Below are positions 5,654 to 52,147 of a stretch of DNA of 64,000 nucleotides, piece by piece. Source of the DNA: a virus; the UHGV virus genome UHGV-0072281, one strand, 5' to 3'. The stretch's first letter is position 1, and the number at the start of each line of letters is the position of its first letter. Below the pieces are notes generated by a model. The model did no database searches. It had not been told where the DNA came from and worked only from the letters and a program-made list of their open reading frames with translations. The translations under genes and the position numbers were made by a program.

Positions 5654-6469
5654 ATGATTACTATTAAAGATTATTTTCCGCGTGGGTTGAGCAATGAAAA
5701 CTTCGTTCCAACTGAAGACATTGCCATCGTTGCAGAGTCCAGCGATAAGTCTTTTAAACTCTACTTGAGTACGGCAGCAGGAAAATCCACTCTTATCCTT
5801 CGTGAACCTGAAGTGATAAGCATCTGCTCGTTTGGGGGTGGTGTAGAAGGAACGATTAACTGGTTGAAATCCAGAATGCATCGTTTGCTTATCGTGAATA
5901 CCGATCCTGTGATTCGTTTACAGCAATTGAAATCGTTGAATGAAATTATCGTCGGATTATTGGAACATGAAACGTTTGGTAATGCTGAGATTGCGGAAGC
6001 GATTAAATCTGTAGAACTAATCGAGTGGAGCGATATCGAATACGAACGTGCTGGGTTATTCGCAATGTACGGTGATGATAATCCCGTTGCGTTTGCACAA
6101 ACGTTGGATAATGTTACCGTAACAGCGCGCGTATTGTTTGGTTTACAACGTGTTGAGTTTGAACTGAAACACGTCTACGTGAGCAATAAACCGGAGATGG
6201 TGGAGACATTGATTCGTGCTTTCGCATACCCGTTAGACGGTGAATGGGAACAGCAGATTAATGAAGCGTTAGAAGCCATGCATTTCCTGGCTGAAACGTT
6301 AAGGAAGGATGAGAAATTGAAAGGTCGTGTTTATCCAGAACACGATTTTGTTTGTGAAGAATGTGGAGCACAGTATCAAATCCGTGTTCCTTTAACCGGC
6401 CTAACATTCCCGCAAGCCAACGTGCAATGTAAGGAATGTGGTCATGTTCAATACGTAGCGATTAAATAA
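5654..6469 (+). CDS. hypothetical protein with C-terminal CxxC...CxxC zinc ribbon
   Basis: ATG with GGAG upstream; C-terminal CEECG...CKECG pair. Confidence 0.6.
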   Translation: MITIKDYFPRGLSNENFVPTEDIAIVAESSDKSFKLYLSTAAGKSTLILREPEVISICSFGGGVEGTINWLKSRMHRLLIVNTDPVIRLQQLKSLNEIIVGLLEHETFGNAEIAEAIKSVELIEWSDIEYERAGLFAMYGDDNPVAFAQTLDNVTVTARVLFGLQRVEFELKHVYVSNKPEMVETLIRAFAYPLDGEWEQQINEALEAMHFLAETLRKDEKLKGRVYPEHDFVCEECGAQYQIRVPLTGLTFPQANVQCKECGHVQYVAIK

Positions 6470-7420: not shown

Positions 7421-8983
7421 TCAAAAGAGTTCGTCACCCATACCGCCTGTAAAGACGTTAATCGACGATGCAGTCACTGTTTCTTCTTTATCGCAATCCC
7501 ATGGCAGAATGCCAACTTCACGGAAAGGTATTACTGTATAATGGTAAGCTTCTTTAGTATCGATAATTGTACGGTGTTTACCACGTTGTACTTCTAAGTA
7601 ACTATGCCCATTGACAACACGTTTGTTAAAATACATCTCACCGTCAGCTTCGTTATCCAAGCTGGAGCAGTTATCGTAAAGACCGCGACCTGGTAAGTTC
7701 TTACAGAAACTTGCTGGGTCTAACGCTTTTAATTTTTTGCCTTCTGGTGAGATTTGGTGTGGCGCTAACAAGAAACCACGGTTACGTACTACCTGGATGT
7801 TTCGAGCGATACGATAAATTTCTTTAATGTCGCTACCGGCAATCCCGTTACCGTGACCTGCTTTACTGATAGTCCCGAAATAGTCTCCGCGAATCCCAGC
7901 TACATGATAACCTCGACGCTTTAAGTCCAGTATTAAGTCGTTTAAGTAATGTATTTTAAAATCTGAGTTTGTGTGTTTCTGAAAGATGTACTCCCAACCG
8001 TTAGCCCGCATTTTACTACAGAGGTAGTCCGACATTTTTGTGTTGTGTAAAGCTTTCTCTTCGTCGGTAGCGTTTTCAGAAGCAACCATAACCGGTGCTT
8101 CACCTTCAAAATGACCGTAGAGCGCTTGGTACGCATACGCCAAATTAACGTCCAGTTCGTTCTCTAAACTTAAATCGAGAATAACCGGCTGTAAATCCCC
8201 TTTAACGTTTTCCATTACCTTTTCAGGCGTATTGAATACCGGAATACTGATAGACAACAACAGACTAAAAAGCGATTTACAGTTAAAGGGCAGTGCAGGC
8301 ATTAGCCAAAGTTCTTCAGTAATCCCTTTGTTACAACCCAACATCTGGTTAATGGCTTTCCATCCGGTACGTAAACCATTACCCGCTGCTTTCTTACTGA
8401 TTGAGTCGAACACATGTACGAACGGTGCACGGTTATCCGTAATAAGTTCACCTACGAGTGAGGGAATCTTATTATGAGAGCGTTCACTGAACGTAGAGAG
8501 ACTATCTCTGAGGTCGTTGAGCGCTGTTTGTAAATCAACGCGCGTTTCGGTTCCGTTCAGTGCGCCTAACGTACGACCTAATTTTTGTTTCAGTTGTACG
8601 CCTTGAATAGCTTGACGTAATTGGAAGTAGTATTGTGCTACTTGACGGTTAAGATGCTCGATGCGTGCTTCTGGTTCTTCTGGAATATCATCTTCCAGGA
8701 ATTTGGTAATCGTATCGTATAGAGGACGTATTTGCGTAGTGGCCAGTTTCAAACGTTTCATGACGTTTGTGTGGTCGTAAGGCATACCGCCGTCTATGAT
8801 GGATGTGATGATATCCTTGATTTCGACGAGGGCGGCACGTTCGTCACCTTCCTCTACGTAATCAGGAAGCTTAGCCTCTAACAGCACTTTTCTTATGACC
8901 TCGTGATCCTTCTCAGGGTCGGTCAGCAGACTTTCAGTGTATAGTGTGGCTAATGCGGTTATCAACATCATTTTGTTATTCAT
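7421..8983 (-). CDS. hypothetical protein (520 aa)
   Basis: Long minus-strand ORF; no motif recognised. Confidence 0.6.
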   Translation of the reverse strand: MNNKMMLITALATLYTESLLTDPEKDHEVIRKVLLEAKLPDYVEEGDERAALVEIKDIITSIIDGGMPYDHTNVMKRLKLATTQIRPLYDTITKFLEDDIPEEPEARIEHLNRQVAQYYFQLRQAIQGVQLKQKLGRTLGALNGTETRVDLQTALNDLRDSLSTFSERSHNKIPSLVGELITDNRAPFVHVFDSISKKAAGNGLRTGWKAINQMLGCNKGITEELWLMPALPFNCKSLFSLLLSISIPVFNTPEKVMENVKGDLQPVILDLSLENELDVNLAYAYQALYGHFEGEAPVMVASENATDEEKALHNTKMSDYLCSKMRANGWEYIFQKHTNSDFKIHYLNDLILDLKRRGYHVAGIRGDYFGTISKAGHGNGIAGSDIKEIYRIARNIQVVRNRGFLLAPHQISPEGKKLKALDPASFCKNLPGRGLYDNCSSLDNEADGEMYFNKRVVNGHSYLEVQRGKHRTIIDTKEAYHYTVIPFREVGILPWDCDKEETVTASSINVFTGGMGDELF

Positions 8984-8996
8984 GGAGCATCCTTAA

Positions 8997-9521
8997 ATGC
9001 AAATTCGTTTTAGTCCACCGTGGGAAGTTCAGCCTAACATAGATAAAGGCGCTGCCGTTAAAAGTGTAGAATTGCTCCAGGCAGGGTTCTTTAACTGGTT
9101 ATATGACTGTCCGAATGGTTTCAGTTCTATCATCTTACCTGAAGTAAGTCGTTCTGCTATTTATAAAGCGTTAATGGCTCCGCCTGTACTTCCAGGTAAA
9201 TATTATGATCAGGTGTTACGTCTGGTCGAATCAGGCGAAAAGGTTTCCCTTGACGATTTATATGGGGAAACAATTCCTTGTCGCTTACGCTGGGTCTTTA
9301 CCCAACGTGGTGATACGATTGTGGCGTCATTTGCAGAAGCGAAGTCCGGTTCGGGTTTTTCTTCGGGTGAAGACCACGCTGCGAAAAAGATGTTCTGCGC
9401 AGAACTTTTTAAATATATGCGTACCAAGACTCGCGTCGTGGATGACTGCTTCAGTACCTCAACGCAGTTTGCCGCTAACGAAGTGCTGACGCAATTATAC
9501 GCATGTCATTTATCTCATTAA
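8997..9521 (+). CDS. hypothetical protein (174 aa)
   Basis: ATG with GGAG upstream; immediately precedes the highly expressed 761-aa gene. Confidence 0.55.
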   Translation: MQIRFSPPWEVQPNIDKGAAVKSVELLQAGFFNWLYDCPNGFSSIILPEVSRSAIYKALMAPPVLPGKYYDQVLRLVESGEKVSLDDLYGETIPCRLRWVFTQRGDTIVASFAEAKSGSGFSSGEDHAAKKMFCAELFKYMRTKTRVVDDCFSTSTQFAANEVLTQLYACHLSH

Positions 9522-9533
9522 GGTATTAAACAA

Positions 9534-11819
9534 ATGAAAGATACCCGAATCTCTAATTTAGAGAAACTCGTAGAAGCCGGTACTAGTCTGGCCCAAAACG
9601 TCATCGGCAACAACACCGCCAGCGAAATGTGGAAGACGATTGTTGCAGGCGAGTCCGTACGTAGCAACGCAAAAGTATTTGGCGCTCTGCGTGACGAAGC
9701 ATCACAGCACTATGCCAACGCTTTTGGCGGCAAGAAAATGTCTCATGCTGCGACCGTCGCTTCCGCAATGATTCTGGGCGTAGCTAACCACGGTAAAGAC
9801 CTGCAAGAACGTGTTGCCCAGGAATACGCTAAGCCGGAATTCCACACCAAGTATAACCTGGATATTGGTATCCCTGGTGCGCAAGGTGGTGATTGGGGTC
9901 GTGAGCGTATGGTTGTTGCTCAGGAATACTACAGCAACAAAGACTACGACAAAAACTTGGGCCTGACCTGGACCCTGAACGTACGTGCTCTGGAAACTCA
10001 GTCCAAGTTTGCTGAAACACTGTTCCCGACCATTACCGTTGACACCAACGATGTTGGTATTACCGTACGTACTAAAGTGACTACCGTTTCTCGCGGTATC
10101 ATGAACGCGCTGCTGAGCAAAGACGTCGTTGAAGATCATCGTCGTCCGCTGCACAACGCACTGACTGACCACACCGTTCTCCAGGACGAAGCGATCAACA
10201 TCGTTCCTTACGTAATGGAAACCGGTGAAAACCAGGAATACTTCGTAAGCGAAGATCTGGTTCCGAACGAAAAAGTTCGCCTGGGTCGTGTACCTCCGTA
10301 TCCGACTAACTACCTGAGCTTTGCAAACGACACGCTGAACCTGTTCCAGCTGTCTGCGCATCCGGGTATCGTTCAGGAAGGTTACGATGAAACTGATGAA
10401 ATCGCACCGGGTTGTGCTCTGGGCAGCCTGCTGATTTCTGTACGTAAACCGGCCGAAGAAGCGAAAGCGGGTAAATTCATCAAACTGCACGTTCGTGACA
10501 TGCAGTTCGCAACCTTCCAGCGTCCTGCTGAAGGTGACGGCCGTGAACTGGTTCTGCAATTCCGTCGTACCGCGTTCTCTCTGAATGCGAAAACCACTGA
10601 CTGGAAAGGCGACGCTATTCCGGCACTGCAAGCACTGGGCCAGAACTCCTACACCCTGCGCTACGTTATCACCATCACCATGTCCCTGTTCACCAGCGGC
10701 CAGTTCGGTGGTAAAGTAGACATTTCCGGCCACAAACTGGAAATCGAAGGTCTGTACGATGCAACTGGTAACAAAGTTGATACCAAGTCTGGTACCGGCA
10801 AAGTTATCCTGGATGGCCTGAAACTCGAACTGATGGGCTGGCGCTTCGATGGTACTCGTACCAACGAAAACCGTCGTACCCAGGGTCTGCTGCTTGACCC
10901 AATTTGGGAACAGGAAAACTACAAACTGCAATACGGTTCTCCGATTCTGACCAAGTCTCCGGTTGGTGTTGAATACGACGACACTGAACGTCTGGATGAC
11001 CTGATCTCTGCGGTGAACATCCGTAACGAACAGCTGGCTATTACTCAGACGCTGTCTTACACTGAAGCAGTACGTAACGCAGCCGCTGCGATGATCACTC
11101 CGTGGGACAAACCGGCTATCCGTGGTCTGGGCCGTCACTGGGTTGCTCCGTGGTTCAAAGAGTCTGACTACAAAGTCGATGAAGTTGTTCAGTCTCTGGA
11201 TACCAAAGAAGCGCTGATCAACGCTCGTCAGGGTCTGTTGCAGCGTATCGGTAGCCAGGTAACTCAGGCTATCCAGGATTCTCGTTTCATTCCTGCACTG
11301 CGCCTGCTGACCGCTGATCCGGACATTCTTCCGAAAGTTATTATCGCAACTGACGAACCGACTGCATCCATGCTGCTGCTGGTTCAGGGCGACCAACGTC
11401 TGCTGGGCGACCGTTATGAATACGAAGTCGTTACCACCAACGATGACCGCTGGCGTATCTACAACGCAGCTGACGATTCCTGGACTCGTCGTCTGCAATG
11501 GTTCCTGAAAGTTCCGACTGCGGACGATGGTTCCTACTGCGTACTGAACTGGGGTAACCACTTCTGGTCTCCGATCATGGTTACCAACATCAACATTCAG
11601 CGTAACGGTTCTACTTCTAAAGAACTGGCTGTACAGCCGCGTAACGCGCATATCTGCCACTGCCCGATCACTGGTCTGATTTGGGTTAAAGGCATCACCA
11701 AACTGGTTGAAGAAAAACTGGCTTACAACGTTTCTGTAGAACAGAACGGCCAGAAACAAACCGAAGGTGGTGTAGCAGGTAACCTTGCTGTCGAAGGCAA
11801 AGCTACCGCTGGTAAATAA
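9534..11819 (+). CDS. major virion structural protein, candidate major capsid protein (761 aa); tail sheath not excluded
   Basis: Codon usage sharply different from neighbours (CTG, CGT, GGT, ACC, AAA, GAA dominate); strong terminator directly downstream; size is in the range I recall for jumbo-phage capsid proteins (from memory, unverified). Confidence 0.45.
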   Translation: MKDTRISNLEKLVEAGTSLAQNVIGNNTASEMWKTIVAGESVRSNAKVFGALRDEASQHYANAFGGKKMSHAATVASAMILGVANHGKDLQERVAQEYAKPEFHTKYNLDIGIPGAQGGDWGRERMVVAQEYYSNKDYDKNLGLTWTLNVRALETQSKFAETLFPTITVDTNDVGITVRTKVTTVSRGIMNALLSKDVVEDHRRPLHNALTDHTVLQDEAINIVPYVMETGENQEYFVSEDLVPNEKVRLGRVPPYPTNYLSFANDTLNLFQLSAHPGIVQEGYDETDEIAPGCALGSLLISVRKPAEEAKAGKFIKLHVRDMQFATFQRPAEGDGRELVLQFRRTAFSLNAKTTDWKGDAIPALQALGQNSYTLRYVITITMSLFTSGQFGGKVDISGHKLEIEGLYDATGNKVDTKSGTGKVILDGLKLELMGWRFDGTRTNENRRTQGLLLDPIWEQENYKLQYGSPILTKSPVGVEYDDTERLDDLISAVNIRNEQLAITQTLSYTEAVRNAAAAMITPWDKPAIRGLGRHWVAPWFKESDYKVDEVVQSLDTKEALINARQGLLQRIGSQVTQAIQDSRFIPALRLLTADPDILPKVIIATDEPTASMLLLVQGDQRLLGDRYEYEVVTTNDDRWRIYNAADDSWTRRLQWFLKVPTADDGSYCVLNWGNHFWSPIMVTNINIQRNGSTSKELAVQPRNAHICHCPITGLIWVKGITKLVEEKLAYNVSVEQNGQKQTEGGVAGNLAVEGKATAGK

Positions 11820-11834
11820 TATCGAATAAAAAGT

Positions 11835-11872
11835 GTCTAAGCCCCAAAAGGGCTTAGACCTTTTATTTTTTT
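11835..11872 (+). terminator. strong rho-independent terminator
   Basis: gtctaagccc/gggcttagac 10-bp stem followed by a 12-nt T-rich run. Confidence 0.8.
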
Positions 11873-12000
11873 CTTTCTATTATTTTTCGGATAGATATTA
11901 TTAAAGAGAGACTGTCAGTTGGTTTAAAGGAGAGTTTATGGAAAAATTACAGTTAAAACTAAAGATATGTACCATTATTAAAACTTAATCTGGCCCTTAC

Positions 12001-13011
12001 ATGAACCGTCTTGATATTGATGTGGTACCCAGTGTTACTGACCGCTCGTTGTATCAAAAGTCAGGACTACAAAAACTCATCACTTTTGAGAATAATACTG
12101 GTGTGCCAATTTACGTCACTGAAACCAGTGGCGGTAGCTTTATTTTAACTCCGTCCAAAAGCACGGCTGATGAGCATGGGGTTGTTGTTTATGTAACGTA
12201 TCAATCGTTCGGAAATCTGGCTAACCTGAACGGGTTTGCAGAAGTCTTACCAGAAAAACAATTCACTAAATTTTGTGCAGATTTAAAGGAGAAAGGAGAG
12301 GTCACACTCCGATACGTCGTCGACGATATCGGTGCTTTATTACGTGGGGACTTGGTTGTATTGAAGCAGTTAGGATTTGCATTTTCAATTACACCAGTTC
12401 GATTAGAAAGTACACCACCGAGTGTAAGGCCAGGAGGTGAGAGAACTGAATTTACATTGGGTGTTATTGTTGTGCAGCGTTACGACGATCCCGAATTATA
12501 TCGTTGGATTAGATTCTACGGAACGCGCATGGAAGTACAACCGATTCTATCGCGGTATTACGAACCGGGTGTGTACATGGTAATAGGAGGAGGAGACAAA
12601 GTAGAAGGGAGCAGGATGATTCACTTTGAGTTCGATGACTTATTGTCACCGTTCCGTGTTTTTAAAGATAAAGAAACAGCCACTGCGTTTCGATGGCAAG
12701 AAACGTTACCGGATATTCACGAGATAAAGGAAAAGCTGGAAAGTCAATACAGAGAAAAATTAGAAAGTTTGGATTCGGCAAAAGACAAACTGGAATTAGA
12801 ACACAAAAAACAACTACAGAATTTGGCTTTAGAAAAGGAGCGTTTGACTCTAGCGTATAAACAACAAGAACTAGAAGCAAAGTCTCGGGCAGAGGCACGA
12901 AAAGAATTCTACGAGACTCGTTCTTACATTCGTAAAGATGGGTCAGACCTATTTAAATCAGTCCCTGCGTATCTGGCGGCGGGTGTCGCATTTATAGGGA
13001 TGCTAAAGTAA
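12001..13011 (+). CDS. hypothetical protein with coiled-coil region and hydrophobic C-terminus (336 aa)
   Basis: Heptad-like K/E/L-rich segment; C-terminal AYLAAGVAFIGMLK. Confidence 0.55.
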   Translation: MNRLDIDVVPSVTDRSLYQKSGLQKLITFENNTGVPIYVTETSGGSFILTPSKSTADEHGVVVYVTYQSFGNLANLNGFAEVLPEKQFTKFCADLKEKGEVTLRYVVDDIGALLRGDLVVLKQLGFAFSITPVRLESTPPSVRPGGERTEFTLGVIVVQRYDDPELYRWIRFYGTRMEVQPILSRYYEPGVYMVIGGGDKVEGSRMIHFEFDDLLSPFRVFKDKETATAFRWQETLPDIHEIKEKLESQYREKLESLDSAKDKLELEHKKQLQNLALEKERLTLAYKQQELEAKSRAEARKEFYETRSYIRKDGSDLFKSVPAYLAAGVAFIGMLK

Positions 13012-13021
13012 GGAGCGTGGC

Positions 13022-14797
13022 GTGTTTAAAGATGCAATCAGAAAGCTTAAAGAGGATGGCAAAATAGTACCCTTTAACCGAGCGATTGCGGAAGGTGTCG
13101 GTTATACCCAGGCCAAAGATGGTATACACGAACGTGTTCAGATTATCTTGAAACGTGAGCTGGATTATCATCCTGTTGATAATCCGCGTGTTCCTGAAGG
13201 GCTGGCTGTATTAGGTGTACGGTTAATGTCGCCGTTTGAAACGTTCATCTATAAGCTGTCTCGTTCTGAGAGCAGCAGAATGGATAGACGCCGTGGTGTG
13301 ATGTCCATTGCGAACACCGATGCGTATATGGTCATGTCAACATTCCGTATTCCAGGAGATTCTCGACCGATCTCAAGACCGATTAACTTACCCTTTATCC
13401 GTCGTGGTGGTTTAATGAACTATTACGGTACGACGTATCACGTTGCGCCGGTTATTCACCAGCCAGGTATCTGTCGCGAACACGGTGGGGTATTTGTTAA
13501 CTTTGACTTTAAACGTAAAGCCTCGTTGAAATTCTGTAAGCAACCTGTCCGTGTGTTAGTCAACGGTAAAAAAGAGGAGCTATTCTTACCAGGAACCAAA
13601 AACCTGTTCAAAGCGAAGAACGCAACACATCCCGATACTGACGAGAAACCGTTAATGTATTGGTTGTTCGGACGTTACGGATTTAAAGAAGCGATTAAAC
13701 GCTATACTGGTGTTGACGTAGAAATTTATCCATCGTTTAAGATCCCAGAACTCGATCTCAACGAGAAAGTTGTAATCAGTTCCGGTGAATCGAAATATAA
13801 CCGTTCGATAATGTACGCGGTTGTCGTACCCGCAGAAGCATTGCCGAACGTGGATAAAGTCGGTTGGGATCAAAACGAGCATTTATTGCTGGCTGCAATT
13901 GCTGCGTTCTTCAAAGCTGCTCACTACTATTGCAGTAAACAATCTATTAAGAACGGTAACGTCACACCGCTGCCGCCGCTGTTTACCGCAATTAACGAGT
14001 TAGCGATGGAAGACGATATTGCTAATCTGAACTCTGCTCCGATTTGGCGTGAGATTCTGGGAAGAAGTATCGTAGGACTGAAACCTTCCGATATTGAGTT
14101 AGCGCACAGTATGGCGAAACACTATACTGAATGTGATCGCTATGTTAACTCAACGTTCCGTGCAGAACTGAAGATGACCGATCCCGACATTCCAGACGAT
14201 ATGGATATGTTTGATTTCTTCTGGTATGCAACGAAACTGATGGTACGTACCCGTTTGACCAAACAGGGCGACATTCCGTCGATGTACGGAAAACGTTTAA
14301 CCGTAACTGACTACTTACTGTTAGGTGACCGTGGGTTTACACCAACGGTAGCGGCTATTCGTTTCCAGCTGGGACAAACGGAGAACCGTTCGCCGGAATC
14401 CTGCGCGAATATGATTCGTAGCGCACTCAATAAAGAAATTGTCACGAGTCTGGTACTGCGTAATATCACCGGTAATGGCGGTGTAAGTTATTTTAACGCA
14501 TCAACAGAATCCATGGTGTTAGGAGTATCCACACACGCGATCAGTCAAACTGAAACGGAATCTAAACGCAACAGCAAGGGCGGTAAAACGGTTAACCTTA
14601 ACGACCGTACGAAACACGCTTCTGCATCGCATCTGGAGTGTGGTAACGTTTATTATATTCCGAAATCATCCCCGTTCAAATGGGGTGTCCTTAACCCGTA
14701 TATGAAAACTAACCGTCAGTTAGTGATGGTTCGTAATCCAAAACTTGACGAGTTAATTCAAGCAACTGAAGAAGACATTGCGAAGATTGGCCGTTAA
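13022..14797 (+). CDS. hypothetical protein (591 aa)
   Basis: GTG start with AAGGAG 6 nt upstream; long ORF. Confidence 0.6.
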   Translation: MFKDAIRKLKEDGKIVPFNRAIAEGVGYTQAKDGIHERVQIILKRELDYHPVDNPRVPEGLAVLGVRLMSPFETFIYKLSRSESSRMDRRRGVMSIANTDAYMVMSTFRIPGDSRPISRPINLPFIRRGGLMNYYGTTYHVAPVIHQPGICREHGGVFVNFDFKRKASLKFCKQPVRVLVNGKKEELFLPGTKNLFKAKNATHPDTDEKPLMYWLFGRYGFKEAIKRYTGVDVEIYPSFKIPELDLNEKVVISSGESKYNRSIMYAVVVPAEALPNVDKVGWDQNEHLLLAAIAAFFKAAHYYCSKQSIKNGNVTPLPPLFTAINELAMEDDIANLNSAPIWREILGRSIVGLKPSDIELAHSMAKHYTECDRYVNSTFRAELKMTDPDIPDDMDMFDFFWYATKLMVRTRLTKQGDIPSMYGKRLTVTDYLLLGDRGFTPTVAAIRFQLGQTENRSPESCANMIRSALNKEIVTSLVLRNITGNGGVSYFNASTESMVLGVSTHAISQTETESKRNSKGGKTVNLNDRTKHASASHLECGNVYYIPKSSPFKWGVLNPYMKTNRQLVMVRNPKLDELIQATEEDIAKIGR

Positions 14798-14836: not shown

Positions 14837-16447
14837 ATGGCAAGCTACAGCGAAACTCGTGAATTTATCTTGAAAGTTGTAATGGCTAAACAGGATCAGC
14901 TGTTGAACTATCTCGTCGATGCGATGAATGCGAAAGGGATAAAAGAAGATCCGTTTGTTAATGCAGCGTGCATTGTAGGTAACTGGTATCTGCAAAACCG
15001 TCGTCCTAACGACCAGACTAACGTTGCGGTTATCGAAACCTTTAAGGCAACGCTGTATAGCCGTCTGTTAGGTTTAGGCCTGACGCCGTTGCAGCCGGAC
15101 ATTCATAGCGCGTTAGAGAAAGCGTTTGTGCTGGCGAATCAACTTGCAGAAGAAGCTCGTCGTGCCGGGCAGGGTGGATTCGGTGTACGTACTGAACCAG
15201 TTAACTTCGGTATTCAGAATTCACAGAATGCGCAACCAACCGCACCGATTCAGGGTTCTTCTGTACCAATGGCCAGCTATACTCCGGCAGGTGTAACAGT
15301 GCAACCTGTACAACCCGCTCCGGTATTCGGCGGTACTCCGCAACCTCAACCTCAGCCGCAATCGCAGCCTGCTATTATTCAGCCGGCTGTTCCGCAGGAA
15401 GTGATGAACAAAAGCAAGCCTGTGGATATGAATAAGGAAACGATGGATGATATCATTCAACGTGCTAACCGTCCTCACCATGACATTTTGCGGGTAGAAA
15501 TTGTGGAAGACTATTTAGATCACGAGCTGAAAGAAAAGATTCAGCAAAACGTTGTTTCGCCGAAAGAAGCTAACACACGCGTCAAGAATTCTGTGTATGC
15601 AGAACATCGTGACTGGGGTGATAAGGTTAGTGAACTGGTTGAAGATAACGACAAACAATATTGCTCGTATGACGATGCGGGTATCATGGTGAAAGTCGAA
15701 AGCGAATATCGTCTGTATCCGATGGCACAGACTGAAACTTCTGCGGTGTATCTCCAGGAGTTTTATAGTTCGGTTCGCCAGATTATCGACGATCTCGATA
15801 CCGTACGTGATATTGACGATATTGAAAAGCTGATGGAGCGTGTTTCTAATGACGTCTTCAGACTGCGTGACCTTGCACAACGTTTGTTAATGTACTTCCT
15901 CACCAAATCTGATGAGAATGAAACGTATCGTAGCGAATGTTCAATGTTTACTCGTCGTTTCGTTGCAACATTAACCGTGCTGGTTCACAACGCTATCTCC
16001 GTGGCATCTGCTTACGGTAAAGACGTTCCGGGTACGAAATTCGTACAATTGGAATGCTGCCTGGATGACATGACCTACTTTAAAGAGACAGTGTATGGTC
16101 GTACCATCGGTGAAAACGGCGTGAGCAAGTCTGCGGATTATTTCCGTGAAATGTTCCTGCTAATCGCACGTTCTCTGCGTAAGCTGCACATTCGTCTGAC
16201 CTGCGATAATAAAGCCATTGAACTGTCTCAGGTAACGTACACGATTTCTCTGCAAGCAGATTATCAATCCGCTAACGATCGTCATATCGTGGAAATCTCT
16301 TCGTTTGGTAATAGCTTCGAACCGATTGTTTCAATCTACGAAGTCATTAACCAGAAAGCACCAGAAGCGTTCATTAAACTTAAGACCCCGTCTCACGTTT
16401 ATTCGCTACTGAGCACAGGTGACGTTACTGCACCGGTTCGTTATTAA
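14837..16447 (+). CDS. hypothetical protein with PQ-rich linker (536 aa)
   Basis: AGGAG RBS; low-complexity PQPQPQPQSQP segment. Confidence 0.6.
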   Translation: MASYSETREFILKVVMAKQDQLLNYLVDAMNAKGIKEDPFVNAACIVGNWYLQNRRPNDQTNVAVIETFKATLYSRLLGLGLTPLQPDIHSALEKAFVLANQLAEEARRAGQGGFGVRTEPVNFGIQNSQNAQPTAPIQGSSVPMASYTPAGVTVQPVQPAPVFGGTPQPQPQPQSQPAIIQPAVPQEVMNKSKPVDMNKETMDDIIQRANRPHHDILRVEIVEDYLDHELKEKIQQNVVSPKEANTRVKNSVYAEHRDWGDKVSELVEDNDKQYCSYDDAGIMVKVESEYRLYPMAQTETSAVYLQEFYSSVRQIIDDLDTVRDIDDIEKLMERVSNDVFRLRDLAQRLLMYFLTKSDENETYRSECSMFTRRFVATLTVLVHNAISVASAYGKDVPGTKFVQLECCLDDMTYFKETVYGRTIGENGVSKSADYFREMFLLIARSLRKLHIRLTCDNKAIELSQVTYTISLQADYQSANDRHIVEISSFGNSFEPIVSIYEVINQKAPEAFIKLKTPSHVYSLLSTGDVTAPVRY

Positions 16448-27516: not shown

Positions 27517-27529
27517 TAGTAACGGTGGG

Positions 27530-27568
27530 TAGAGAGAGCTTTCGGGCTCTCTCTACTTTTCTTTTTTT
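27530..27568 (+). terminator. rho-independent terminator
   Basis: tagagagagc/gctctctcta stem followed by a T-rich run. Confidence 0.7.
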
Positions 27569-36839: not shown

Positions 36840-36845
36840 GCTGCA

Positions 36846-36880
36846 CCCTCTCTCCAGACGGAGAGAGGGTGTATTTTTTT
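36846..36880 (+). terminator. rho-independent terminator
   Basis: ccctctctcc-agac-ggagagaggg hairpin followed by a T run. Confidence 0.75.
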
Positions 36881-52101: not shown

Positions 52102-52105
52102 CACG

Positions 52106-52147
52106 GTAGCAGGGGCTAAGCCCCTGCTACCTTTTTCTTTATTTTTT
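52106..52147 (+). terminator. rho-independent terminator
   Basis: gtagcagggg-ctaag-cccctgctac hairpin followed by a long T-rich run. Confidence 0.8.

What the first reader, a model, noticed from the sequence alone, without database searches (positions are those of the whole stretch)
9534..11819. Codon-usage island marking the most highly expressed gene, with a 685-aa antisense shadow ORF
The 761-aa gene uses a strongly restricted, host-optimal codon set unlike its neighbours and is followed by the strongest terminator in the window. The bias is strong enough that the opposite strand stays open for 685 codons. The size would suit a jumbo-phage-type capsid protein.
Basis: partly seen in the sequence, partly recalled or inferred. 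Interest (0 to 1): 0.35.

Follow-up and report, generated by a model that had tools for sequence, protein, structure and literature searches.

The report
Codon-optimised jumbo-phage major capsid gene
This is the major capsid protein gene of an SPN3US-like jumbo phage of enterobacteria; its host-optimal codon choice is real and conserved, and the 685-codon "gene" on the opposite strand is only a by-product of that codon choice, so the finding is correct but ordinary.

Summary
Both ORFs exist exactly as described. The 761-aa protein is a PhiKZ-type (HK97-fold family) major capsid protein. It matches Pfam PF25620 at E=5e-207 and is 77-80% identical to SPN3US gp75 and the phiEaH2 capsid protein, with the same gene order and a conserved prohead-protease site (VAQE131|YY).

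Its codon bias is extreme. CAI against E. coli ribosomal/EF genes is 0.765, versus 0.52 for the next gene and about 0.39 typically. Nc is 33.4 where GC3 alone predicts 60 (z=25.7). Sixteen relatives show the same bias.

The antisense ORF lies in exact codon register, so its stop codons are sense TTA/CTA/TCA. The gene has 2 of these where 36 are expected. E. coli tufA, fusA, rplB and rpsC show the same effect. The antisense frame is not a gene:
- its dN/dS is 1.0-1.7;
- it has no ribosome-binding site and no homologues;
- it is broken by 3-9 stops in phiEaH2, Wellington and pEa_SNUABM_11.

The claim of the "strongest terminator in the window" fails: the hairpin (-16.3 kcal/mol) ranks about 17th of 23, although a terminator after this gene is conserved.

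Verdict: known phenomena in an already described phage lineage, so low interest. One side observation is an invariant palindrome and a candidate leader structure upstream of the capsid start codon.

The parts
9534..11819 (+). Major capsid protein gene (761 aa), PhiKZ_MCP family, homologue of SPN3US gp75
   Evidence: ORF. Pfam PF25620 E=5e-207 and PHROG 3231 E=1e-278. 77-80% aa identity to SPN3US and phiEaH2 capsid proteins. PDB matches 11bt, 36za, 8y6v, 8bfl. CAI 0.765, Nc 33.4.
9534..9926 (+). N-terminal propeptide (residues 1-131), predicted to be removed by the prohead protease after A129-Q130-E131; weakly biased 5' part of the gene
   Evidence: In alignment A1, VAQE|YY aligns with SPN3US VATE130|YY, and E131, Y132 and Y133 are invariant. 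SPN3US gp75 loses 130 residues at an A-X-E motif (PMC5694885). CAI is 0.455 for codons 1-50, and synonymous conservation is at baseline for codons 1-100. Cleavage itself is inferred.
9927..11816 (+). Mature capsid protein region (630 aa); this is the actual codon-usage island
   Evidence: Sliding CAI is 0.75-0.88 from codon 101 onward. Same-codon fraction among relatives is about 0.7, against a baseline of 0.53.
9702..11759 (-). 685-codon antisense 'shadow' ORF in codon register (frame -1); not a gene
   Evidence: Its stops are the sense codons TTA/CTA/TCA, which are avoided. dN/dS in this frame is 1.0-1.7. It is interrupted in phiEaH2, Wellington and pEa_SNUABM_11. It has no PHROG match, and the exact sequence is not in the 15-billion-protein collection. 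It starts with TTG and has no Shine-Dalgarno sequence upstream.
11835..11872 (.). Bidirectional intrinsic-terminator-like hairpin (GTCTAAGCCC-CAAAA-GGGCTTAGAC) with a T-run on the + strand and an A-run (T-run on the - strand) upstream
   Evidence: Scan. Stem energy is -16.3 kcal/mol on + and -17.2 on -, which is mid-ranking. A hairpin plus T-run follows the capsid stop codon in all 9 genomes examined (the window and 8 relatives), although the sequences differ.
9520..9524 (+). Shine-Dalgarno-like AAGGT, 9 nt upstream of the capsid ATG, overlapping the stop codon of the upstream ORF
   Evidence: Sequence. AAGGT or GGGT is conserved in 15 of the 17 aligned sequences; Wellington and pEa_SNUABM_11 read GAGA here (A6).
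8997..9521 (+). Upstream 174-aa ORF (SPN3US gp74 homologue, PHROG 8266, function unknown), 12 nt from the capsid gene; ordinary codon usage, but it carries conserved nucleotide elements
   Evidence: CAI 0.415. dS is 0.68-0.74, where neighbouring genes are saturated. Synonymous conservation peaks at codons 1-30 and 121-160.
9385..9414 (+). Nearly invariant 30-nt block AAAAAGATGTTCTGCGCAGAACTTTTTAAA containing a perfect 14-bp palindrome (9392-9405), 129-142 nt upstream of the capsid ATG
   Evidence: Invariant in the first 9 genomes, synonymous positions included. In the 17-sequence alignment the 24 nt from the palindrome onward stay invariant, and a few flank bases vary. The surrounding 46 nt are 91-100% identical across the roughly 70 enterobacterial-phage records of the clade that match. 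The palindrome is unique in the window.
9417..9537 (+). Candidate conserved RNA structure in the capsid leader: long-range stem TATGCGT (9417-9423) with TACGCATG (9498-9505), two internal hairpins, and UCAUUU (9506-9511) pairing with AAAUGA (9532-9537), which contains the start codon
   Evidence: RNAalifold on 9 and on 17 sequences. 98.7% of cells are paired. Four pairs carry compensatory changes, reached by 2 of 500 shuffles, and slid controls give 0-1. No Rfam family matches. Function is inferred only.

Best explanation
The segment is the major capsid protein gene of a nucleus-forming-type jumbo phage. The phage resembles Seoulvirus and Erskinevirus and most likely belongs to the proposed genus 'Bapsvirus'. 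It infects Enterobacteriaceae.

Each virion needs about 1,600 copies of this protein, so it is the most heavily translated phage product. Selection for fast and accurate translation has therefore fixed the host's preferred synonymous codons almost everywhere downstream of the first 50-100 codons (CTG, CGT, GGT/GGC, ACC/ACT, CCG, AAC, TAC, TTC, GAA, AAA, ATC).

The three sense codons whose reverse complements are stop codons are TTA, CTA and TCA. All three are non-preferred, so they have been purged along with the other rare codons. As a result the codon-aligned antisense frame has no stops for 724 codons. That frame is not expressed and not selected.

The gene lies 12 nt after a small upstream ORF, which must hold its promoter or leader, and it ends in a conserved intrinsic terminator of ordinary strength. 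The first 131 residues are a propeptide, predicted to be cut off after A-Q-E131 by the prohead protease.

SHOWN: protein identity; size and conservation of the bias; the arithmetic link between the bias and the open antisense frame; the lack of constraint on the antisense frame.

INFERRED: the expression level, the cleavage, and that translational selection is the cause of the bias.
For: IDENTITY
- Pfam, PHROG and PDB matches.
- 77-80% identity to SPN3US and phiEaH2 capsid proteins, and the helicase(-)/174 aa/capsid/336 aa/RNAP-beta gene order as in SPN3US gp73-77.

ABUNDANCE OF THE HOMOLOGUE
- 1,560-1,615 copies per virion and the highest spectral counts.

BIAS
- CAI 0.765 against 0.52 or less for every other window ORF, and Nc 33.4.
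- z=25.7 against synonymous resampling, and Nc 60.2 expected from GC3.
- CAI is 0.71-0.78 in all 16 relatives examined, while their neighbouring genes score 0.32-0.58.
- Synonymous divergence is held at dS 0.66-0.77, while the helicase, the 336-aa gene, RNAP-beta and the 536-aa gene are saturated.

HOST
- Genomes 98% identical occur as 222-kb 'plasmids' of E. coli and Enterobacter. The identical protein occurs on 221-227 kb contigs of Salmonella, Shigella and Enterobacter assemblies.

SHADOW ORF
- 2 TTA/CTA/TCA codons against 35.7 expected, and P=1e-18 under average usage.
- Under the gene's own usage, 20% of simulations reach 685 codons or more.
- E. coli tufA, rplB and rpsC are 100% open and fusA 75% open in the same frame. 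Weakly or moderately biased E. coli genes (CAI 0.29-0.55, rpoA among them) are 15-51% open.
- TTA/CTA/TCA are no rarer than the other minor Leu and Ser codons.

LITERATURE
- Frame -1 ORFs are explained by the codon bias of highly expressed genes (Silke 1997, as cited in PMC3454372; bioRxiv 10.1101/724807).
- Phage structural genes have elevated CAI (PMC2266997).
Against: - No expression or proteomic data exist for this phage itself.
- The host reference is E. coli K-12, not a proven host strain.
- The nine capsid genes pooled use TTA+CTA for 5.5% of their non-CTG Leu codons. The E. coli reference set uses 19%. This is a slight extra avoidance that codon bias alone need not predict, although tufA, rplB and rpsC are equally clean.
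- In nucleus-forming phages transcription and translation are physically separated, so part of the synonymous constraint could act at the mRNA level rather than on decoding.
Confidence: 0.9

Rival explanations
1. The 685-codon antisense ORF is a genuine overlapping gene, and avoidance of stops on the minus strand is itself selected.
For: - The frame is open for 678-769 codons in most relatives.
- TTA and CTA are somewhat rarer among minor Leu codons than in the E. coli reference set.
- Overlapping genes are known in phages (PMC3454372).
Against: - The frame is interrupted by 4 stops in phiEaH2, 9 in Wellington and 3 in pEa_SNUABM_11.
- Antisense dN/dS is 1.0-1.7 and amino-acid identity 46-60%, against 60-79% for the sense frame.
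- It has a TTG start, no Shine-Dalgarno sequence, and its first ATG is at residue 37.
- It has no PHROG family, and no gene caller has recorded this product.
- The bidirectional terminator at 11835-11859 would stop minus-strand transcripts from entering it.
- E. coli tufA, fusA, rplB and rpsC show the same open frame.
Confidence: 0.02
2. The codon island reflects foreign origin of the capsid gene, that is horizontal transfer from a genome of different composition, rather than selection for expression.
For: - GC is locally higher: 0.515 at 10-11 kb against 0.40-0.48 elsewhere.
- The capsid gene plus the upstream ORF form the only stretch of the 3.5-kb query that megablast detects in relatives.
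Against: - The bias points towards host-optimal codons. It is not a simple GC3 shift: GC3 is 0.536, within the window's range, while Nc is 33 against 60 expected.
- The same bias, position and gene order are seen in all 16 relatives examined, which span five classified genera plus this lineage.
- The 5' 50 codons of the same gene have genome-typical usage.
Confidence: 0.03
3. The synonymous constraint acts mainly at the mRNA level (stability, export from the phage nucleus, or avoidance of premature termination or cleavage) rather than on decoding speed or accuracy.
For: - Relatives in this family separate transcription from translation (PMC12768965).
- The adjacent upstream ORF shows strong synonymous conservation without any codon bias, so nucleotide-level constraints do exist at this locus.
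Against: - The preferred codons are exactly the E. coli high-expression set, giving a CAI above the mean of the reference genes themselves (0.765 against 0.684).
- Synonymous conservation within the gene is uniform rather than blocky.
- Conserved amino acids are re-encoded with the same preferred codon rather than with conserved arbitrary codons.
Confidence: 0.05

Closest known systems
Salmonella phage SPN3US gp75 (Seoulvirus major capsid protein; T=27 capsid)
   Same: - 77% amino-acid identity over the full length.
- Same flanking genes.
- The same A-X-E|YY protease site at residue 130/131.
- The same codon bias (CAI 0.775, Nc 33.2) and a fully open antisense frame.
- A terminator after the stop codon.
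   Different: - It belongs to a different genus-level lineage. Flanking genes are only 34-84% identical with saturated dS.
- This protein lacks the Gly/Thr-rich C-terminal extension of SPN3US, phiEaH2 and Asesino.
- The genome is about 222 kb rather than 240 kb.
Pseudomonas phage phiKZ gp120 (Pfam PF25620 PhiKZ_MCP; PDB 8y6v)
   Same: Same protein family (E=5e-207 to the Pfam model, E=6e-33 to the solved chain). Both have a long N-terminal propeptide and form a large jumbo-phage capsid.
   Different: Only about 24% identity. The host differs and so does the preferred codon set. I did not analyse codon bias in phiKZ.
Frame -1 'shadow' ORFs opposite highly expressed genes (Silke 1997; Merino 1994; the dnaK-antisense 'glutamate dehydrogenase' PF10712 case)
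   Same: A long ORF in codon register on the antisense strand, produced because TTA/CTA/TCA are avoided in a strongly biased gene. There is no purifying selection on its translation.
   Different: None in kind. At 685-724 codons this is simply a long example, because the host gene is long and very biased.
Translational selection on phage structural genes (Lucks et al. 2008, PMC2266997)
   Same: A structural gene needed in very high copy number uses host-preferred codons more than the rest of the phage genome does.
   Different: Here the effect is concentrated in one gene, not in a structural-gene block. Other virion-protein genes in the window reach only CAI 0.45-0.52.

Membership tests
PhiKZ-type major capsid protein (Pfam PF25620; PHROG 3231) | Full-length profile match above the curated threshold | tested here: met
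   689 bits against a cut-off of 27, covering profile positions 2-634 of 635. PHROG 3231: 927 bits over positions 1-743 of 746.
PhiKZ-type major capsid protein (Pfam PF25620; PHROG 3231) | Sequence relatives with solved capsid structures (HK97-derived fold) | tested here: met
   phmmer against the PDB: 11bt E=1.6e-49, 36za E=4e-49, 8y6v (gp120) E=6e-33, 8bfl E=2e-32. All are named capsid or head protein chains. I did not predict a structure.
PhiKZ-type major capsid protein (Pfam PF25620; PHROG 3231) | N-terminal propeptide removed at an A-X-E motif by the prohead protease | tested here: inconclusive
   The motif A129-Q130-E131|Y132 aligns with the experimentally mapped SPN3US site, and E131, Y132 and Y133 are invariant. 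Cleavage itself cannot be tested here.
PhiKZ-type major capsid protein (Pfam PF25620; PHROG 3231) | Most abundant protein of the virion | not testable with these tools
   Known only for the homologue SPN3US gp75.
Seoulvirus/Erskinevirus-like capsid locus | Gene order: DnaB-like helicase (-), small ORF, capsid gene, about 336-aa ORF, RNAP beta-like subunit | tested here: met
   Window ORFs 7421-8983(-), 8997-9521, 9534-11819, 12001-13011 and 13022-14797 match the order in all 16 related records fetched. Some relatives carry 1-3 extra genes after the capsid gene.
Translationally selected, highly expressed gene | Codon adaptation to the host's highly expressed genes, beyond what composition explains | tested here: met
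   CAI 0.765 (the reference genes average 0.684). z=25.7 against resampling. Nc 33.4 against 60.2 expected from GC3.
Translationally selected, highly expressed gene | Bias conserved in orthologues and synonymous divergence reduced | tested here: met
   CAI 0.71-0.78 in 16 orthologues. dS 0.66-0.77 where four of the five neighbouring genes compared are saturated.
Translationally selected, highly expressed gene | Measured high mRNA or protein level | not testable with these tools
   No expression data exist for this phage.
Genuine antisense overlapping gene | ORF kept intact across relatives | tested here: not met
   Broken by 4 stops in phiEaH2, 9 in Wellington and 3 in pEa_SNUABM_11.
Genuine antisense overlapping gene | Purifying selection in its own frame | tested here: not met
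   dN/dS is 0.98-1.67 in the antisense frame, against 0.20-0.41 in the sense frame.
Genuine antisense overlapping gene | Translation signals and protein homologues | tested here: not met
   TTG start without a Shine-Dalgarno sequence. No PHROG match. The product is absent from the protein collection.
Proposed genus 'Bapsvirus' (Chimalliviridae found in bacterial assemblies) | Genome of about 220-226 kb in Salmonella, E. coli or Shigella assemblies, with gene order like Seoulvirus but low nucleotide identity to it | tested here: inconclusive
   The window is 98% identical to 222-kb circular 'plasmid' records of E. coli and Enterobacter. The identical capsid protein lies on 221-227 kb Salmonella and Shigella contigs. 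This fits the description in PMC12768965. I did not check that paper's accession lists or calculate genome-wide ANI.

The most novel reading that the evidence does not exclude
The last 140 nt of the upstream ORF may hold a cis-acting control element for capsid-protein synthesis, shared by the whole enterobacterial Seoulvirus/Erskinevirus/Machinavirus/Derbicusvirus/Wellingtonvirus/'Bapsvirus' clade. The region is conserved at the nucleotide level far beyond what the protein requires.

It contains a nearly invariant 30-nt block with a perfect 14-bp palindrome (9392-9405) and a structured leader. The last helix of that leader pairs the capsid start codon with an upstream CAU.

The element could be an operator or promoter for the phage's own RNA polymerase, or a translational switch that keeps read-through transcripts silent until late infection. 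That would resemble what is known for some T4 late genes (from my own knowledge, not checked here).
Probability: 0.25. Interest if true: 0.4.

Novelty: already known. Interest (0 to 1): 0.12.

Why it matters
It matters mainly as a clean worked example and an annotation warning.

- The gene can be labelled with confidence as the major capsid protein. RefSeq records of this phage, filed as 'plasmids', call it hypothetical.
- Its start should be the ATG at 9534, not the internal Met79 used in some records.
- The long antisense ORF should not be annotated. A fragment of the equivalent ORF is annotated as a protein in phiEaH2.
- The host-like codon signature supports an enterobacterial host for a phage known only from bacterial assemblies.

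None of this changes current understanding of jumbo phages.

Tried and rejected
- Antisense ORF as a gene: rejected. It has no PHROG family, the exact sequence is not in the protein collection, dN/dS is at or above 1, and it is broken in three relatives.
- Overlapping gene in another frame of the upstream 174-aa ORF as the cause of its synonymous conservation: rejected. The +1, +2 and antisense frames are not consistently open across relatives.
- Known RNA family in 8800-12100: none at E<=1.
- tRNA genes in the window that might shape codon choice: none.
- Sigma-70-type promoters: no enrichment over shuffles anywhere. This is expected for a phage with its own RNA polymerases.
- A phiKZ-style TATG late-promoter motif downstream of the palindrome: it is present in some lineages (window, SPN3US), but it is shifted or absent in others (Derbicus, Phobos, CR5 read TTCATG). 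I therefore make no promoter call.
- Further copies of the palindrome or of TACGCATGTCAT elsewhere in the window: none beyond chance.
- An apparent N-terminal truncation of the RNAP-beta gene was an artefact of my ATG-only ORF caller. The gene starts at GTG 13022.
- Structure prediction and fold search were not run, because the sequence matches to solved capsid chains were already decisive.
Full report
**Observation.** The ORF listing returns both ORFs at the stated coordinates: 9534..11819 (+, 761 aa, ATG) and 9702..11759 (-, 685 aa, TTG). The region also stands out in composition, with GC 0.515 at 10-11 kb against 0.40-0.48 elsewhere.

**Identity.**
- The 761-aa protein matches Pfam PF25620 'PhiKZ major capsid protein gp120' (E=5e-207, profile positions 2-634 of 635) and PHROG 3231 'major head protein' (E=1e-278).
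- It matches solved capsid chains by sequence, including phiKZ gp120 (8y6v).
- tblastn against 50,697 phage records finds 203 records. The best hits are phiEaH2, SPN3US-like Salmonella and Escherichia phages and Erwinia jumbo phages at 60-80% identity, and the phiKZ group at about 24%.
- The neighbourhood is DnaB-like helicase (-), 174-aa ORF, capsid gene, 336-aa ORF, RNAP beta-like subunit. This order is the same as SPN3US gp73-gp77 and as every relative fetched.
- In a nine-protein alignment the N-terminus MKDTRI is conserved, which supports the ATG at 9534. VAQE131|YY aligns with the SPN3US site VATE130|YY.
- In SPN3US, mass spectrometry showed removal of 130 residues at an A-X-E motif (PMC5694885).
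- SPN3US gp75 builds a T=27 shell of 1,560-1,615 copies and gives the most spectra of any virion protein (PMC10052503, PMC5694885, PMC7552025).

**Codon usage.** I called 73 ORFs in the window (ATG starts, at least 80 aa, non-overlapping). I built CAI weights from 28 E. coli K-12 ribosomal-protein, rpoA, tufA and fusA genes.
- The capsid gene has CAI 0.765, above the mean of the reference genes themselves (0.684). The next ORF scores 0.522 and most score 0.25-0.45. Nc is 33.4 against 40-61.
- Leu is 87% CTG where the rest of the window uses 20% CTG and 33% TTA. Arg is 83% CGT, and Gly uses no GGA or GGG. Asn is 95% AAC, Tyr 83% TAC and Phe 80% TTC. Heterogeneity against the rest of the window gives chi2=436, df 41, p=2e-67.
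- Re-drawing synonymous codons for the same protein from window-wide usage gives CAI 0.380 +/- 0.015 (z=25.7). GC3 alone would predict Nc 60.2.
- The first 50 codons have CAI 0.455 and codons 51-100 have 0.687. Everything beyond codon 100 lies between 0.75 and 0.88.
- The bias is a property of the whole clade. Sixteen orthologues have CAI 0.71-0.78, while their neighbouring genes score 0.32-0.58. They span Seoulvirus, Erskinevirus, Machinavirus, Derbicusvirus, Wellingtonvirus and the two near-identical 'plasmid' copies.
- Against SPN3US and Asesino the capsid gene has dS 0.66-0.77. The helicase, 336-aa, RNAP-beta and 536-aa genes are saturated (dS 1.6 to infinity), although the helicase is more conserved as a protein.
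- This fits the published pattern that phage structural genes use host-preferred codons (PMC2266997).
- The enterobacterial reference is justified. The identical protein lies on 221-227 kb contigs of Salmonella, Shigella and Enterobacter assemblies. Genomes 98% identical are filed as 222-kb plasmids of E. ludwigii and E. coli.

**The shadow ORF.** The antisense ORF is in exact codon register with the sense gene, so its stop codons are the reverse complements of the sense codons TTA, CTA and TCA.
- The capsid gene has two of these (codon 9 TTA, codon 57 TCA), where window-average usage predicts 35.7. The probability that codons 58-761 stay open under average usage is 1e-18.
- With the gene's own codon usage, 20% of simulated sequences reach 685 open codons or more. 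With window usage the mean longest run is 81 and the maximum of 5,000 simulations is 243.
- Only this frame is open: 2 stops against 27-53 in the other alternative frames. The stop-free stretch is 9705-11876.
- E. coli tufA, rplB and rpsC are open over 100% of their length in the same frame, and fusA over 75%. Weakly or moderately biased E. coli genes (rpoA, secY, chiA, gspA, gspD, gspE; CAI 0.29-0.55) are open over 15-51%.
- TTA/CTA/TCA are no rarer than the other minor codons CTC, CTT, TTG, AGT and TCG.
- In the antisense frame dN/dS is 0.98-1.67 and amino-acid identity 46-60%. In the sense frame these are 0.20-0.41 and 60-79%.
- The frame carries 4 stops in phiEaH2, 9 in Wellington and 3 in pEa_SNUABM_11.
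- There is no Shine-Dalgarno sequence before the TTG, and the first ATG is at residue 37. There is no PHROG match, and no such product is in the 15-billion-protein collection.
- This is the known frame -1 effect of codon bias (Silke 1997 and Merino 1994 as cited in PMC3454372; bioRxiv 10.1101/724807).

**Terminator.** A 10-bp hairpin with 6 G-C pairs at 11835-11859 is followed by CTTTTATTTTTTT, and it also reads as a terminator on the minus strand.
- Its stem energy is -16.3 kcal/mol. Among the 23 best terminator-like sites of the window it ranks about 17th.
- The strongest sites are 36842-36873 (-26.6), 52105-52131 (-24.4), 17168-17140 (-23.2) and 27527-27558 (-21.5).
- 'Strongest in the window' is therefore not supported.
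- A hairpin plus T-run does follow the capsid stop codon in all nine genomes compared, with different stem sequences.

**What else is at the locus.** The 174-aa upstream ORF (SPN3US gp74 homologue, function unknown) has ordinary codon usage (CAI 0.415). Yet its dS is only 0.68-0.74.
- The conservation is local, at codons 1-30 and codons 121-160.
- Codons 1-30 lie next to the divergent helicase start. The two start codons are 13 nt apart and their Shine-Dalgarno sequences interleave.
- The second zone contains a 30-nt block invariant in the first nine genomes, AAAAAGATGTTCTGCGCAGAACTTTTTAAA (9385-9414), with a perfect 14-bp palindrome. In the 17-sequence alignment a few flank bases of the block vary, but the palindrome and the following TTTTTAAAT stay invariant. 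TACGCATGTCAT (9498-9509) is invariant in all 17.
- The surrounding 46 nt are 91-100% identical across the roughly 70 enterobacterial-phage records of the clade that match.
- RNAalifold on 9 and on 17 sequences predicts a structure over 9380-9545. Its last helix pairs UCAUUU (9506-9511) with AAAUGA (9532-9537), the capsid start codon. U-A is replaced by C-G in Derbicus, Phobos and CR5.
- In that structure, 98.7% of cells pair. Four pairs carry compensatory changes, reached by 2 of 500 shuffles, and slid controls give 0-1.
- No Rfam family matches, and no alternative frame is consistently open.
- In phiKZ the strong late promoter p119L likewise sits upstream of the gene that precedes the capsid gene. 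Its only consensus is TATG at the transcription start (PMC12809450, PMC7598289). A TATG follows the palindrome here but is not conserved clade-wide, so I make no promoter call.
- This is a lead, not a result.

**Source of the window.** The phage collection has no close match. The best is about 80% nucleotide identity, and only over the upstream ORF plus the capsid gene. The window is nevertheless 98% identical to circular 222-kb 'plasmids' NZ_CP134650.1 and NZ_CP173450.1, where the capsid gene is annotated 'hypothetical protein'. This fits the proposed jumbo-phage genus 'Bapsvirus', described from Salmonella, E. coli and Shigella assemblies (PMC12768965). I did not check that paper's accession lists.

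**Verdict.** Everything in the finding is an instance of well-described phenomena in an already described phage lineage, so novelty and interest are low.

Noticed in passing
window 8997-9521, especially 9385-9414 and 9498-9537: The upstream 174-aa ORF has ordinary codon usage but unusually low synonymous divergence. It holds a nearly invariant 30-nt block with a perfect 14-bp palindrome (GTTCTGCGCAGAAC). It also holds a candidate conserved leader RNA structure whose last helix pairs the capsid start codon with an upstream CAU. Four pairs in that structure show compensatory changes, and no Rfam family matches.
   Followed up: partly
window 8880-9110: The helicase (-) and 174-aa (+) genes start 13 nt apart, with interleaved Shine-Dalgarno sequences. 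The junction and the first 30 or so codons of the + gene are nearly invariant at the nucleotide level in 9 phages. This suggests that the promoter of each gene is embedded in the coding sequence of the other.
   Followed up: partly
whole window; L010 (NZ_CP134650.1) and L011 (NZ_CP173450.1): The window is 98% identical to circular 222-kb records filed as non-mobilizable 'plasmids' of Enterobacter ludwigii (gull cloaca) and E. coli (human urine). The identical capsid protein lies on 221-227 kb contigs of Salmonella, Shigella and Enterobacter assemblies, in a cluster of 378 members. This fits the published 'Bapsvirus' lineage of lytic-type jumbo phages that persist in bacterial isolates.
   Followed up: partly
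L002 (phiEaH2) 6100-6213 minus strand; protein cluster: GenBank annotates a 37-aa 'hypothetical protein' (AFQ96805.1) inside the phiEaH2 capsid gene. It is a fragment of the same codon-aligned shadow ORF, and the capsid start there is called 78 codons too late. Several NCBI Salmonella entries of 683 or 685 aa in the capsid cluster are probably late start calls; 683 aa matches a start at Met79 (I did not inspect their sequences).
   Followed up: yes
window 11926-11988: In the AT-rich spacer after the terminator there is a 16-codon mini-ORF (MEKLQLKLKICTIIKT, 11938-11988) preceded by a strong Shine-Dalgarno sequence (AAAGGAGAG). I did not check its conservation.
   Followed up: no
between the capsid gene and the 336-aa gene: window 11820-12000; L004 8979-9788; L005 8423-10106; L006 8449-9201: This intergenic position varies across the clade. 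It is empty here and in SPN3US, but holds one to three extra small genes in Asesino, Machina, ChrisDB and SPAsTU.
   Followed up: no
window 14837-16447: The ORF with the second-highest CAI in the window (0.522, Nc 42) is a 536-aa protein of unknown function (PHROG 8185). It is the homologue of SPN3US gp78, which is listed in the essential-gene comparison table of PMC5105663, yet it is only 34% identical to it. It may be another abundant product.
   Followed up: no
whole window: Terminator-like hairpins are about twice as frequent as in shuffled sequence (38 against 18.9, 36 against 18.8, 28 against 17.6, and 12 against 4.2 in the four scans). Many are bidirectional and sit between genes. Sigma-70-like promoters are not enriched, and there are no tRNA genes.
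   Followed up: no
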